From: a virus
Lineage: Duplodnaviria; Heunggongvirae; Uroviricota; Caudoviricetes; Crassvirales
Length of the DNA: 37,530 nucleotides
IMG/VR virus record: IMGVR_UViG_3300042473_001002
Reading direction: 5' to 3' (one strand)
The notes under the pieces were generated by a model. That model saw only the letters and a program-made list of their open reading frames with translations. It ran no database searches and had not been told where the DNA came from. How positions within the stretch are numbered: the first letter of the stretch is position 1; each line of letters starts with the position of its first letter. Both the position numbers and the translations under genes were made by a program. Shown one piece after another: positions 4,380 through 29,571 of the stretch.

Positions 4380-6044
4380 TTACACGATTGTTGAACTTGT
4401 TACGATTGGAATAACAGTAAAAGAAGTTCCTCTTGATACTGTATCAATTCCTGACATTTGTTCTATATTAATTGCAGGAATGAGGTATCCATTATCAGTT
4501 GCTGTGAAAGTTCCTTCAATTACTGCACTTGCTTTCCCTGTGTTGTTGATAGTGTTGTTTATCAATAAGTCTGAAAAAGAAGTTCCTACACGTGCGTCGA
4601 CTAAACCTTGATAGTCTGGTTCGCCTATATCATTGTCAAAAACACTTAACGATTGATATCTTACATTTGATGTGTTTGCAACGTCCCCCAACATTGCAAA
4701 AGATAATTGAGTGGTATTAAGTAAGCCTTCTAAAAAAAGCAATAATTTAAACTCATAAGTAATTCCGCTTGTTATTGGGAAGCTTCCATTACCTGAGCTA
4801 CCAACATTAAATATTTTTTGTGTTGTGCCACCAGAATCGACTAAAGAATAATTTGTGTTTTGCAACATTACTGTTTTTAGCAAATCGCTTTTCTTGGCAT
4901 ATTCAACACTACTCCAGTCCGTCCCATCATAAAATCTGTAAACCAAAGCACCAGCTGTATAACCTACTCCGCCTATTGTGGTTGTTCCGCCAATAACGTG
5001 AACTATGTAGCCTTTGTTTGCTTCAGGCGTTGGGTCGGTAACGGTTAACGTTCCATTTGTGGAATAAGCTACTAAATTAACCGCTGTGAAATCTGATGTT
5101 TGGATGTTGGCGAATGGTAGATCTGATAGATAAGCCAAAGGATTCCAAATAATTCCATTGTGTACGTTTGGCCTTGCGTTTTCATCAAAAGCAAAAAAAC
5201 CTTTTACAGCATTTGTAATATTACTTAATGCCCTTGAAACAATTTTAAAACCTCCGTTTTTATAACTCGCAAACGAAGTCAATCTAAATCCATCTTGACC
5301 AATTCCTATACTAAATGCTAAATCGTTAGCCTCGTAATTTATTTGGCTTATTGGAGATATATTTTCGTTATAAGTTCCAACCGCAGTTTCAGAAAAACTA
5401 TTTGAAAAAACACCAAAACCGCTTGCATTTGAGTAATTTCCTATAGCTGCTCCTGCGCTGCTTGACGTTGAAAAATCCCCTACAGAAACCCCATTTCCAG
5501 ATGAAAAACTATTTTCTCCACTAGCGGCGCCGTCCACGCTAAGGTTTACACTAAAATTACCTTCATCAGTATAAGAAACGTCTTTTCTATGTATTGCACC
5601 ATTTTCCTCTTGCGTAAAAACAATTTCAGTATTTTCCGCAATAACATTAACACTCCAATATTCTACTCCTCCAACTACTTCAATTAATTTTAAAATAGCT
5701 AGTCCGTTTTTTGGGATTAAAGGAGAGCCGATAAATTCAATGTCTGTATCGAATATAACCTCTCTCGGTGTAGGCGAAGCGTTTTTAATCCAAAATTCCG
5801 TGTTAGCTGTAAATCCTAAACTTAAAACGGGGTCAAACTCCGTTGTGATTGTTAGAAATTTATCATCGTCGGATTGTAAAATTGTGTACGGGTCGGTATC
5901 TGTTATAATTTTAACTTCCCTTTTTTGGAATCCAATTATAGGATTAATAGGATCAGTATTATCAACATCTTGACCACTTACCGATTGAACGCCACTTATT
6001 CCTCCTGATGAATTTGTTCCAAGCTGTATTTTTATTTTAGCCAT
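4380..6044 (-). CDS. Tail fibre / receptor-binding protein
   Basis: Gly/Ser/Ala-rich repeats resembling YadA-head repeats (SFSSGNG, AIGNYSNASG, SETAVGTYN); modular; within the fibre cluster. Confidence 0.7.
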   Translation of the reverse strand: MAKIKIQLGTNSSGGISGVQSVSGQDVDNTDPINPIIGFQKREVKIITDTDPYTILQSDDDKFLTITTEFDPVLSLGFTANTEFWIKNASPTPREVIFDTDIEFIGSPLIPKNGLAILKLIEVVGGVEYWSVNVIAENTEIVFTQEENGAIHRKDVSYTDEGNFSVNLSVDGAASGENSFSSGNGVSVGDFSTSSSAGAAIGNYSNASGFGVFSNSFSETAVGTYNENISPISQINYEANDLAFSIGIGQDGFRLTSFASYKNGGFKIVSRALSNITNAVKGFFAFDENARPNVHNGIIWNPLAYLSDLPFANIQTSDFTAVNLVAYSTNGTLTVTDPTPEANKGYIVHVIGGTTTIGGVGYTAGALVYRFYDGTDWSSVEYAKKSDLLKTVMLQNTNYSLVDSGGTTQKIFNVGSSGNGSFPITSGITYEFKLLLFLEGLLNTTQLSFAMLGDVANTSNVRYQSLSVFDNDIGEPDYQGLVDARVGTSFSDLLINNTINNTGKASAVIEGTFTATDNGYLIPAINIEQMSGIDTVSRGTSFTVIPIVTSSTIV

Positions 6045-8029: not shown

Positions 8030-8755
8030 TTATTCAAATTGATTTTCAAATTGTGTTTCAAAAATTTTAAAATTTTCTTCTTGATCTCCAATTGTTACAT
8101 TGTTGTTTATTCTTTTTATTTTTATAAATATATTTCCAAAAGAATATATATTTTTAGATACAAATAAAGTATAATTATATTCTGGAATATTTACAATATC
8201 AAATTGATTTGTAATAATGTTTCCTAATATATCTTTAATTTCATAATTAATAGTATTTGAATTGTTATCAATAAAACAAATTCTACCTATATTATTGTAA
8301 GATATTGTTTTTCCTAATTCAAAACTTTTATAGGTATCAAAATCTTTATCTAATAAAAAACTAGGTTGAGTTAAAGAATATATATCTTGAATTGTTGTTA
8401 AATAATTTTCTTCTTGCCAATAATAAATATAATAATTATTATTGATTGGTATCTGACCACAATCAGTTGATTCTGATTGAGTAAATGTTTCTTTTATATT
8501 TGAATGTAAAGGTTTTAATATTTTATCTTTACAAATATTTTCAGATTTATGTGAAATTTTATTATATAAAGAAACTAAATCTTTTACATTTTTACTATTT
8601 ATTTCTAATCCACAATTATAAATTAGATTATATATTATGTCAATATAATAAATTTCTAAAGGTTTTAGTTCTCCATATATTTTAGATCTTTTATAATCTT
8701 TATTTAAAGAACTTATTATTGTAGATATATGTTTTTTTTCATTAATATATATCAT
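8030..8755 (-). CDS. Hypothetical protein (structural module)
   Basis: 241 aa ORF co-oriented and tightly spaced. Confidence 0.55.
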   Translation of the reverse strand: MIYINEKKHISTIISSLNKDYKRSKIYGELKPLEIYYIDIIYNLIYNCGLEINSKNVKDLVSLYNKISHKSENICKDKILKPLHSNIKETFTQSESTDCGQIPINNNYYIYYWQEENYLTTIQDIYSLTQPSFLLDKDFDTYKSFELGKTISYNNIGRICFIDNNSNTINYEIKDILGNIITNQFDIVNIPEYNYTLFVSKNIYSFGNIFIKIKRINNNVTIGDQEENFKIFETQFENQFE

Positions 8756-8756
8756 T

Positions 8757-9335
8757 TTATTGTTGTTTAAATTTACTACACTTTGAACAATTTACTTTTT
8801 CACAGTTAGTACAGTTTTTTAAATTACATAATTTTTTTAATTCTTCTAACATATCAATTGCTTCAGAATAATAACCCGTTTCAATTCCTTTTTCAATACT
8901 ATCAATTAATAAATTTATAGTTATTGCTGTTTTATTAATATAACTATTATTACAATCGTTACAATTTGAATTTTTATTTTCTAAAACATAATTTAGTAAA
9001 CAGTTATAATATGATAATAATGAATAAGTAATTCCTAATGCGGGTGTACCGCAAGTATTACATTCATCTTCTTCATTTTCATAATCGCTTTCTACTTCAA
9101 TAAAATATATATCTTTAAAACTATCAATTTGTATTTCTGAAGCATTAACAATAAATATTTCTTTATTATTAATTTGTTCTAATTTATAATTTAAACTAAT
9201 TGATTGTGATTCATCTTTAAATGTTTCATTATTCCAAAGTAAAATAGAAGTAATAGTTGAACCTATATTTGTTTCTACATTTATTGCTAACTTATCACCA
9301 TTCTCAATTATTTGAAAATCATTTATTTTTATCAT
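8757..9335 (-). CDS. crAss-like Cys-rich structural protein (tail hub-like)
   Basis: Cys clusters including a C-terminal CTNC..CSKC; syntenic position after the capsid genes. Confidence 0.5.
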   Translation of the reverse strand: MIKINDFQIIENGDKLAINVETNIGSTITSILLWNNETFKDESQSISLNYKLEQINNKEIFIVNASEIQIDSFKDIYFIEVESDYENEEDECNTCGTPALGITYSLLSYYNCLLNYVLENKNSNCNDCNNSYINKTAITINLLIDSIEKGIETGYYSEAIDMLEELKKLCNLKNCTNCEKVNCSKCSKFKQQ

Positions 9336-26524: not shown

Positions 26525-26556
26525 CAAAGATACAAAATATTTATGACATTACCAAA
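26525..26556 (-). promoter_or_regulatory. Bacteroidota promoter heading the late block
   Basis: TTTG-N20-TATCTTTG. Confidence 0.8.
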
Positions 26557-26586
26557 TATTTTGTTAATTATTTTTTAAATTATAGC

Positions 26587-26624: not shown

Positions 26625-26970
26625 GATATAATTAATGCTAGTTTATTTTAAAATCTACAATTAAACTTTAGTAAAAGGTTATAATATAATTTTGTTAATT
26701 AAAAGACAGAAAAACCCCTTTGCAATTTAATGCATTTACCGTTATTTTAATACAAATAGTTGTTTTAATGAAGCAGTGCAGTTTAATACCAAGAGATAGC
26801 TACCTTTATAAAGACATTTTCGGTTCGTGACACCATTTGCTAAATCAACTTCAGTTTAACTATTTTGGGAACAGTTGTTTTCAGACTCATTATTAACCCT
26901 AGAGACACTGTCGCAGTTGTTAGTTGCTACCAGCGTAGTCGTCATAATAATAATGATATTTTAATATTAG

Positions 26971-27002
26971 CAAAGATACAAAATTATTTTGTAAAATCCT
27001 AA
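26971..27002 (-). promoter_or_regulatory. Bacteroidota-type promoter driving an ORF-poor transcript
   Basis: TTAG-N20-TATCTTTG. Confidence 0.65.
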
Positions 27003-27137
27003 TAAAATGTCAATTATTTTCAATTTATTTTACAACACTAATAGCTTTTATGTTAGTTTGGAGTTAAAATTTTTATTTTTTTTAATTTTTTTAAAAAATT
27101 TATTAGTGTCGAGTGTGTTAAGTAACCTAAACTTCAC

Positions 27138-27178
27138 CCCCACTCTTTTCAAGTTTCGGGGATATACCCCACTCTTTT
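27138..27178. repeat. Direct repeat CCCCACTCTTTT x2 with overlapping GGGG-ATATA-CCCC inverted repeat
   Basis: Copies at 27138-27149 and 27167-27178. Confidence 0.8.
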
Positions 27179-27197: not shown

Positions 27198-27575
27198 ATG
27201 TCTAAAACCACTTTTAAACCTGTTCTTAATGAACAAACTAATAAAACTGATTTCAATTTCCCAGCAACATTGAAATCTATCGGAACTTCAGTTTTAAAGC
27301 TTAACAATGCTAAGCAAACTGAATATGTTGTAGGTACAATTGACTTTACTTATCCTAATGGTACACCTGCAGTTGGTGTTACCACTCAAATCTTCAAGAA
27401 GTCTCTTGATCACGGTATTACTGTTGATTCTACATTGTTGTCAACTCTGTCTCTTGGTGACGACGGTAAAATGTATATTAGAACTTCACATTTAGTTGCT
27501 GGTAACAACGTTGATACTGAAGCTTTTGCTAGCTTGTTCAATGAAGTTGCTGAACCTGTTGCTAATGACGCATAA
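27198..27575 (+). CDS. Highly expressed beta-rich protein, possible OB-fold ssDNA-binding protein
   Basis: Optimal codons (GCT, ACT, GGT, AAC), beta-strand pattern, acidic tail, own terminator. Confidence 0.45.
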   Translation: MSKTTFKPVLNEQTNKTDFNFPATLKSIGTSVLKLNNAKQTEYVVGTIDFTYPNGTPAVGVTTQIFKKSLDHGITVDSTLLSTLSLGDDGKMYIRTSHLVAGNNVDTEAFASLFNEVAEPVANDA

Positions 27576-27578
27576 TCT

Positions 27579-27610
27579 ATAGGGACTCTTAGGAGTCCTT
27601 ATTTTTTTTT
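27579..27610 (+). terminator. Terminator hairpin, copy 1
   Basis: ATAGGGACTC-TTAG-GAGTCCTTAT plus T-run. Confidence 0.85.
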
Positions 27611-27632
27611 AAACTAACTAAACTTATATATT

Positions 27633-27815
27633 ATGACAATTACAATATCTGTTAAAATTGAAACTGGAGATAAATATAATTCTTCAACTTATAGTGAAAT
27701 AACTTTGGATTTAACTGATCCTATAGAAGTAGCTATTGCAGGAAATTTTGTAACTCAACGAATCATAACCTCTTTACAATCTGGAATTGTAGATTGTTGT
27801 GAAGTTGCAGTATAG
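27633..27815 (+). CDS. Hypothetical 60-aa protein
   Basis: ttATG start context; bounded by repeated hairpins. Confidence 0.55.
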   Translation: MTITISVKIETGDKYNSSTYSEITLDLTDPIEVAIAGNFVTQRIITSLQSGIVDCCEVAV

Positions 27816-27821
27816 ACTTTA

Positions 27822-27841
27822 GACTCTTAGGAGTCCTTATT
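27822..27841 (+). repeat. Hairpin copy 2, lacking a U-tract
   Basis: GACTCTTAGGAGTCCTTATT is identical to 27584-27603. Confidence 0.85.
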
Positions 27842-27845
27842 AACA

Positions 27846-28078
27846 AACCATAGTCACGTAGTGAATATTGATTATGGTTACAACATCTGTGGGGGTAAAT
27901 GCACACAAACCTTTTCTACGGAAAAGATAATTTGGGAGTGATTGCTGTAAGTAGAAATACTTGGGGTTAGGTGAAGCCACAGCGTTATTATAGGTAAAGA
28001 TAGTTAGTGGAGTCGTAAGACAGTGATGCGTTTGAAGCTAGATTACTATAATACAAACAGTTACGATAAGACTGTTAA
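27846..28078 (+). ncRNA. Candidate structured ncRNA of unknown family
   Basis: ORF-free and GC-elevated; six stems with C(UACG)G, GAAA and GUAA tetraloops; followed by a terminator. Confidence 0.55.
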
Positions 28079-28085
28079 CAAACAT

Positions 28086-28119
28086 ATATAAGGATTCTTC
28101 GGAGTCCTTATATTTTTTT
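28086..28119 (+). terminator. Terminator hairpin, copy 3
   Basis: ATATAAGGATTC-TTCG-GAGTCCTTATAT plus T-run; UUCG loop. Confidence 0.85.
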
Positions 28120-28164
28120 GATTAAAAGAAACCTATTGTGTCATTTCTCAATAAGTCACAATAC

Positions 28165-28305
28165 TACCTATATATTAAGGTATAAATAATTATGAGTTTA
28201 AATTAACATTCTAGTTGATTTAATGAACCTTTGAGACCTTGTTACAATTCTAGTAATGAGTCAGTAAATCTTATAATTATTTATACCTATATATTAAGGT
28301 ATAAA
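28165..28305. repeat. Two identical 22-bp sites TACCTATATATTAAGGTATAAA
   Basis: At 28165-28186 and 28284-28305; each is palindromic around an 8-bp ATATATTA core. Confidence 0.85.
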
Positions 28306-28395
28306 ATTCCAATTAAATATTAGTATTAATATTAAATCTTTAATCTTGACATTTTAATATTTAATCAATATTATTACTAAAACTTTAATTGGAAT
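28306..28395. repeat. Long AT-rich imperfect inverted repeat
   Basis: ATTCCAATTAAA...TTTAATTGGAAT with inner AATATTAAA/TTTAATATT arms. Confidence 0.7.
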
Positions 28396-28607
28396 ATTAA
28401 TGTATCATTCTAACTTCCCAAGGGTTAGCAGTTGTAACCAAACCAGTGCGATGATGACACGTTGAGTTACAACTGAATACAGAGGGTATTTATAATCTAT
28501 TAATGGAAGGTTGTTGTTGACAAATAGGATAGGATGTATGATTCTGACTTAGACATTAGATCTAGTTAACCCTAAGTTGAATAAAACAACACAAATATTT
28601 ATAATTT

Positions 28608-29310: not shown

Positions 29311-29571
29311 CAACACTTTAGTCAGTCAATTACAGGTAATGCTGGGTTGACTGATTACAAAATTAAATCACTTGCTTGAAGATAAACAATAATATAAAAT
29401 AAGCCATTAGGCAACATTAGGTTAGAGTCCTAGTTAAAATAGTATTATAGACTGTACTAGAAGTCGTGTTTATTGTAAAGATATTAAATAAAGAATTGAC
29501 TAAGTTGCATGACAACCAGTAGGCTTTTAAATAATATTCCACTAGAATTTGGACAAGTGACTTTAATATAT

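What the first reader, a model, noticed from the sequence alone, without database searches (positions are those of the whole stretch)
27846..28078. Approximately 230-nt tetraloop-rich ncRNA candidate packaged like a gene
ORF-free and GC-richer than its flanks. Stems: AACCATAGTCA/TGATTATGGTT; GTG/CAC; CTTTTC-TACG-GAAAAG (cUACGg); a three-way junction GCTGT[AAGTA-GAAA-TACTT][GGT-GAA-GCC]ACAGC; TATAG.TAA/TTACTATA enclosing GTC-GTAA-GAC; AACAGTT/GACTGTT. UNCG and GNRA loops read correctly only on the + strand. It lies between two copies of the repeated hairpin, exactly as the neighbouring ORFs do. I cannot assign it to a known family.
Basis: partly seen in the sequence, partly recalled or inferred. 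Interest (0 to 1): 0.7.

Follow-up and report, generated by a model that had tools for sequence, protein, structure and literature searches.

The report
Optional phage RNA behind boundary hairpin
In this freshwater crAss-like phage the flagged stretch is two things: a small hairpin that related phages reuse at the edges of genes and RNAs, and an optional, probably folded RNA of about 195 letters that matches no catalogued family and whose job is untested.

Summary
The stretch is non-coding, has no Rfam match, and lies in the early region of a phi14:2-like crAss-like lake phage. It is not one 230-nt unit.

Part 1 (27846-27879) is a separate hairpin with a near-invariant cap. It has 9 variants, and 8 of 14 pairs covary. 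In other phages it occurs without the rest: in front of genes, and at both ends of two-piece tmRNA genes. I read it as a processing or boundary signal.

Part 2 (about 27884-28078) holds three GNRA/UNCG-capped hairpins, the densest such cluster in the window (p about 0.001-0.01). It folds no better than shuffles (z -0.9). Only two alleles were found, 5 substitutions apart, all compatible with pairing.

The unit sits inside a split terminator. Carriers have the hairpin without a U-tract before it and hairpin plus U-tract after it; most relatives have a single hairpin plus U-tract.

Best reading: an optional RNA cassette made by read-through, cut at the boundary hairpin and acting as a protein-binding RNA. 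Expression and function are not shown. The scan reported other, apparently unrelated crAss early RNAs before; a sequence look-up found no other genome with this one.

The parts
27198..27575 (+). First rightward (early-arm) gene, 125 aa, no Pfam or PHROG family; weak OB-fold/SSB-like structural look-alikes and an acidic tail. Its transcript would read into the cassette.
   Evidence: TM about 0.5, lead only
27579..27611 (+). Repeat hairpin copy 1: 10-bp stem plus 9-U tract, intrinsic-terminator-like
27633..27815 (+). Optional 60-aa ORF cassette; absent from L011-L013, L015, L016 and L185-L187, which carry the RNA directly after copy 1
27822..27841 (+). Repeat hairpin copy 2: only a 5-bp stem here, no U tract, so read-through is expected
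27846..27883 (+). Boundary hairpin (P1): 11-bp variable stem, bulged C, short upper stem and 5-nt loop; near-invariant 16-nt cap at 27855-27870 and conserved 3' tail UAC(U/A)A. Independent motif, also at both ends of two-piece tmRNA genes in relatives.
27884..27985 (+). Core, 5' domain. Robust hairpins 27911-27926 (UA(C/U)G loop) and 27949-27962 (GAAA loop). Probably closed by helix 27887-27892/27977-27982; G-rich junction strands. Long-range fold unresolved.
27986..28053 (+). Core, 3' domain. Stem 27986-27997/28043-28053 (the best fold when this domain is folded alone), GUAA hairpin 28012-28021, and a U-A to A-U swap at 28027/28036 between the two alleles.
28056..28076 (+). 3' hairpin of the core, 7 bp, pairing probability 0.85-1.0
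28086..28120 (+). Repeat hairpin copy 3: 12-bp stem, UUCG loop, 7-U tract; likely 3' end of the transcript

Best explanation
An optional non-coding RNA cassette was inserted into the terminator of the phage's first early gene, between the terminator hairpin and its U-tract, and carries its own copy of the hairpin. SHOWN: this anatomy, the patchy distribution, and that the first 34 nt are an independent, covarying hairpin reused at gene and RNA boundaries. INFERRED: transcription reads through the U-less hairpin into the cassette and stops at the U-tailed copy at about 28120. The boundary hairpin is recognised by a protein, most likely an endoribonuclease, and defines or protects the 5' end of a small RNA of about 195-240 nt. 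That RNA folds into a compact multi-hairpin shape and works in trans during infection by binding a protein (a decoy or scaffold useful against some hosts or defences), which would explain why it is gained and lost like an accessory gene. Recombination between the 20-nt hairpin repeats moves such cassettes.
For: Split terminator: 12 non-carrier loci have hairpin plus U-tract right after the gene (two more, L014 and L052, have weak or altered tails); carriers have hairpin, cassette, hairpin plus U-tract. The same allele sits behind 125-aa genes that differ by 17% in DNA, showing recent exchange. Boundary hairpin: 9 variants, 97.6% of cells paired, 8 of 14 pairs with compensatory change, 0 of 500 shuffles as high, slid controls low. 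It occurs without the core in L053, L060, L062, L180-L183, 3-8 nt before the acceptor piece and about 20-30 nt after the tag stop codon of permuted tmRNA genes in two phages. Core: unique tetraloop density, + strand only; G:C ratio 2:1. None of the 5 allele differences has to break a pair: G-U to G-C in P1, U to C opposite a G in either of two candidate helices, one loop position, and one U-A/A-U swap. In phi14:2, early intergenic regions give abundant, stable non-coding RNAs (bioRxiv 10.1101/2020.03.07.982082). A twister-like element 300 nt downstream suggests this arm's transcripts are cut up.
Against: Only two alleles of the core, 98% identical, and the flanking AT-rich scaffold is at least as conserved, so conservation is not evidence of selection. 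No distant homologue in any search. Core folding z -0.91. The two alleles give different minimum-energy folds, and forcing the swap pair costs about 5 kcal/mol. No nuclease or binding protein identified. The boundary hairpin was found in only 3 of 39 related IMG/VR records and not in phi14:2, so it is not a general signal. Cleavage is inferred from position alone, and the decoy role is a default guess.
Confidence: 0.45

Rival explanations
1. The whole stretch is a cis-acting 3' untranslated structure of the early mRNA (125-aa gene, with or without the 60-aa gene). It is never released, and it tunes mRNA stability or read-through; the boundary hairpin is a protein-binding or end-protecting element, not a cut site.
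For: No promoter is evident inside the cassette (sigma-70-like hits at chance level), it always follows the same gene, and it ends at that transcript's terminator.
Against: Most relatives express the same gene without it. The boundary hairpin elsewhere sits at the 5' edge of an RNA or gene that follows, including a tmRNA piece.
Confidence: 0.22
2. The core is a non-functional or decaying passenger, a remnant of some other RNA or DNA carried along by recombination at the hairpin repeats; only the boundary hairpin and terminators work.
For: Folding z -0.91; no family found; divergence not lower than that of the flanks.
Against: Three canonical tetraloop hairpins, p about 0.001-0.01 and unique in the window; 37% GC kept in a 26% GC genome; no indels and no necessarily disruptive change among 5 substitutions.
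Confidence: 0.15
3. The 233 nt are one integral RNA, with the first hairpin as a structural domain and a GCUGU/ACAGC three-way junction.
For: In both alleles the hairpin and core are adjacent and unchanged in spacing.
Against: The same hairpin, in the same upstream context, is followed by an unrelated ORF in L053. The junction has pairing probability below 0.1, and models that force it are 3 kcal/mol worse than the alternative closing helix.
Confidence: 0.1
4. The core (or the boundary hairpin with its conserved tail) is a self-cleaving ribozyme of an undescribed class that cuts the early transcript.
For: A twister-like element lies 300 nt downstream; G-rich junction strands and crossing candidate helices could form a pseudoknot.
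Against: No match to any Rfam ribozyme. By eye the hammerhead, twister, pistol, hatchet and HDV cores are missing. The hairpin alone is too simple for known ribozymes.
Confidence: 0.08

Closest known systems
Early long non-coding RNAs of Cellulophaga phage phi14:2 (g004-g005 and g005-g006 intergenic regions; bioRxiv 10.1101/2020.03.07.982082)
   Same: Same phage group (major capsid protein 63% identical), same early rightward arm, non-coding, function unknown.
   Different: No sequence or structure similarity (nhmmer; covariance model on the whole phi14:2 genome). The g004-g005 family is present in relatives L003 and L020 (compared by eye) but is a different RNA. The g005-g006 region reads by eye as a standard tmRNA gene.
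PeSL promoter/stem-loop cassettes of T4-type phages RB49 and phi1 (PMC2839356)
   Same: Repeated terminator stem-loops flank optional small modules in a variable early region, and recombination between them shuffles the modules.
   Different: No sigma-70 promoter joined to each hairpin here; the repeat is about 20 nt; the cargo includes a non-coding RNA; excision circles were not tested.
RNase III processing hairpins of polycistronic phage RNA (T7 early sites, own knowledge; determinants reviewed in PMC3867540)
   Same: A stem of about 11 bp or more between units of a long early transcript.
   Different: RNase III reads the helix with degenerate sequence; here the stem is free to vary and the loop, bulge and 3' tail are conserved, which points to a loop-reading protein.
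ROOL and GOLLD RNAs (PMC12286853)
   Same: Phage-associated, tetraloop-rich RNAs of unknown function.
   Different: Much shorter, no Rfam match, no covariation family.

Membership tests
Any Rfam 15 family | Covariance-model score at the family threshold | tested here: not met
   best hits are snoRNA noise, E 1.2 or worse
phi14:2 g004-g005 long non-coding RNA | Sequence or structure homology | tested here: not met
phi14:2-type early non-coding RNAs (as a kind) | Non-coding unit on the rightward early arm of a phi14:2-like phage | tested here: met
   (shared element at the divergence point)
phi14:2-type early non-coding RNAs (as a kind) | Abundant, stable transcript during infection | not testable with these tools
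PeSL-type cassette | Optional module bounded by repeated terminator stem-loops | tested here: met
PeSL-type cassette | Strong sigma-70-like promoter joined to each stem-loop | tested here: not met
   promoter-like hits at shuffle level; the scan does not cover Bacteroidetes or virion-polymerase promoters
RNase III site (boundary hairpin) | Helix of about 11 bp or more | tested here: met
   11 bp plus 3 bp
RNase III site (boundary hairpin) | Cleavage by RNase III | not testable with these tools
   needs mapped ends or an in vitro assay; a conserved loop is not typical
Y RNA Ro60-binding helix (boundary hairpin) | Conserved GUCCGA/UUGAC helix with bulged C (consensus from memory) | tested here: not met
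   alignment A5: bulged C and G-U are present, but there is an extra A-U pair and the G-C/U-A pairs are not conserved; no Ro60 family among the 10 window proteins scanned
Known self-cleaving ribozymes (hammerhead, twister, twister sister, pistol, hatchet, HDV) | Catalytic core motif and topology | tested here: not met
   Rfam; inspection by eye
Conserved structured RNA family (core) | Significant covariation across diverged homologues | tested here: inconclusive
   two alleles only; one compensatory swap, RNAalifold finds no double change in its own fold

The most novel reading that the evidence does not exclude
The bulged hairpin is an undescribed, sequence-specific RNA cutting signal of crAss-like phages that punctuates early transcripts and sets the outer ends of two-piece tmRNAs, so that RNAs as well as genes can be swapped as ready-processed cassettes; the 195-nt core is a new class of accessory phage RNA that neutralises a host defence or translation factor.
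Probability: 0.2. Interest if true: 0.7.

Novelty: new member of a known kind. Interest (0 to 1): 0.42.

Why it matters
crAss-like phages transcribe their early arm with their own polymerase from promoters that have no known motif, and phi14:2 makes abundant early RNAs of unknown function. How these transcripts are cut into units is open. The 40-nt boundary hairpin is small, well supported by covariation and placed at defined RNA ends, so it gives a direct test of that processing. The core shows that a non-coding RNA can come and go as an accessory cassette at a terminator repeat, like a gene. Its narrow range and weak structural evidence keep its own interest moderate.

Tried and rejected
Homologue searches that found nothing for the core:
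- blastn in phages and plasmids.
- Exact or gapped patterns in IMG/VR, GTDB and JGI metagenomes. All hits were chance, mostly inside ORFs.
- A covariance model of the core on 39 related virus records plus phi14:2 (71) and on ENA/Logan loci. The model came from two near-identical sequences, so its reach is limited.
- These collections did not even hold the phage's own copy, so absence is weak evidence.

No whole genome was held.

Ideas considered and rejected:
- Recoded or decayed ORF: stops of all three kinds in every frame.
- Antisense pairing of 27889-27896 with the conserved C-rich element at about 27137: not among the ten best duplexes in the window.
- Pseudoknot between the cap and tail of the boundary hairpin: no covariation and sterically unlikely.
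- Word-level resemblances to 16S rRNA, RNase P, pistol, hatchet, cobalamin and SAM riboswitches, and a k-turn at 28023-28037: order or partners do not fit, and Rfam gives nothing.
- DNA hairpin promoter for the virion polymerase: not excluded, but G-U pairs on the + strand favour RNA.

The supplement of the 2023 survey of 10,000 candidate viral RNAs (PMC10690425) was not available, so overlap with that list is unchecked.

Full report
Setting. The window is part of a crAss-like phage genome: portal, terminase, major capsid protein and groEL match PHROG families, and the capsid protein is 63% identical to that of Cellulophaga phage phi14:2. Genes run leftwards up to 26527 and rightwards from 27198. 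The finding lies 650 nt into the rightward arm, which is the early arm in phi14:2. Identical copies occur in several metagenome contigs.

The observation. Rfam has no match. Three canonical tetraloop hairpins read on the + strand and none on the - strand. Shuffles give p=0.009 for the count and p=0.001 for summed stem length, and no other + strand stretch of the window reaches this density. Other claims are weaker. GC content equals that of the upstream gene (36.9% against 35.2%). The folding z-score of -1.77 comes from the first hairpin (z -4.4); the remainder scores -0.91. The three-way junction and the long 3' stem have pairing probabilities under 0.1 in the full sequence, although the 3' stem is the best fold of its domain alone.

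Relatives show a cassette. I followed the upstream 125-aa gene into about 20 related loci. In 12 non-carriers the gene is followed by one hairpin and a U-tract; two more have weak or altered tails. In carriers the hairpin has no U-tract, the candidate follows, and a second hairpin with a 7-U tract closes the unit. The unit was therefore inserted inside the terminator, bringing its own hairpin copy. The 60-codon ORF of the window is a second insert of the same type: L011 and L015 lack it, and its one homologue is likewise flanked by UUCG hairpins in another phage. One allele of the RNA sits unchanged behind 125-aa genes that differ by 17%, which shows recent recombination. This parallels PeSL shuffling in T4-type phages (PMC2839356), without the attached promoter.

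The first hairpin is a separate motif. L053 has the same terminator hairpin and the same first hairpin, with a U-A to C-G change, followed by an unrelated ORF. Pattern and model searches found more copies. Nine variants share a near-invariant 16-nt cap and a short 3' tail on a freely varying 11-bp stem: 97.6% of cells pair, 8 of 14 pairs change on both sides, no shuffle reaches the score, and slid controls are low. The copies sit after stop codons, in front of genes, and in two phages at both outer ends of a permuted tmRNA gene (Rfam RF04321 in L180). In permuted tmRNAs the inner ends are made by tRNA-processing enzymes (PMC11915505). A motif at both outer ends fits a cut site or an end-protecting protein site; a tandem duplication trimmed at such a site would leave this pattern (inference). 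RNase III needs about 11 bp but reads the helix rather than a loop (PMC3867540), so a loop-reading protein is more likely. The motif was found in only 3 of 39 related IMG/VR records and not in phi14:2.

The core. For 27884-28078 I found only two alleles. The five differences over the whole 233 nt are 27872 (G-U to G-C in the first hairpin), 27886 (U to C, opposite G in either of two candidate helices), 27919 (loop) and 28027/28036 (U-A to A-U). None has to break a pair, but 2.1% divergence is no lower than in the AT-rich flanks, so this is not proof of selection. Robust elements are hairpins 27911-27926, 27949-27962, 28012-28021 and 28056-28076. No distant homologue was found in any collection. 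It is unrelated to the phi14:2 g004-g005 RNA.

How it most likely works. Shown: the split terminator, the patchy distribution and the independent boundary hairpin. Inferred: the early transcript reads through the U-less hairpin and ends near 28120; a protein recognises the boundary hairpin and cuts or protects there; a folded RNA of about 195-240 nt accumulates, as early intergenic RNAs do in phi14:2; it acts by binding a protein, as an accessory decoy or scaffold. I put 0.45 on this chain and about 0.8 on the anatomy alone. Rivals are a cis-acting 3' structure (0.22), a non-functional passenger (0.15), one integral RNA (0.10) and a new ribozyme (0.08).

Novelty and score. The kind is known: structured non-coding RNAs of unknown function in the early arm of crAss-like phages, reported for phi14:2 and noted by this scan on other DNA. 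This sequence and its boundary hairpin match no catalogued family; a sequence look-up in the scan's notes found no other genome with them. Overlap with the 2023 list of candidate viral RNAs could not be checked. The core is narrow in range and thinly supported; the boundary hairpin is well supported and easy to test. Interest 0.42.

Noticed in passing
window 28393-28490 (+); L011 5957-6054, L012 5957-6076, L025 10439-10611: Twister-ribozyme-like element: invariant core with the expected stems and two pseudoknots, and a variable 49-124 nt insert in a side stem. Rfam does not call it; identified by pattern only.
   Followed up: partly
L180 1501-1848; L181 1501-2124 (G019, G016): Permuted two-piece tmRNA genes in crAss-like phages, flanked on both sides by the boundary hairpin; in L181 the spacer is about 370 nt. 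Relatives L001 and phi14:2 have a standard one-piece tmRNA instead.
   Followed up: partly
window about 28191-28278 (+): Recurring motif in nearly all relatives: a conserved stem and a CCUUUGA-containing junction enclosing a freely swapped hairpin; the insert differs between window and L011 while the flanks are identical.
   Followed up: no
window 27128-27165: C-rich element with a hairpin just before the first rightward gene, conserved in all relatives and partly in phi14:2 (L051 about 5955-6023); candidate early promoter, leader or genome-end signal.
   Followed up: partly
window 26525-26574 and 26971-27020 (-): Repeated motif upstream of leftward units, also in relatives and phi14:2; probably the host-polymerase middle promoter.
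   Followed up: no
window 26774-26848 (-), 29354-29396 and 29439-29485 (+): Further non-coding stretches conserved with L003 at 76-86%; likely additional small RNA modules.
   Followed up: no
window 27198-27575: The first early gene has over 100 homologues, an acidic C-terminal tail and weak structural likeness to single-strand-binding OB-fold proteins (TM about 0.5).
   Followed up: partly
L003 about 5690-5930; L020 about 8600-8850; L052 about 5880 onward: Look-alikes of the phi14:2 g004-g005 long non-coding RNA, seen by eye; absent from the window's equivalent position.
   Followed up: no
L052 4986-5065: A different structured 80-nt module with GUAA and GAGA loops inserted between the stop codon of the same gene and the terminator hairpin.
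   Followed up: no
L182 and L183 (G040): Phage-like early-region contigs inside a genome labelled as an uncultured archaeon; probably mis-binned phage DNA.
   Followed up: no
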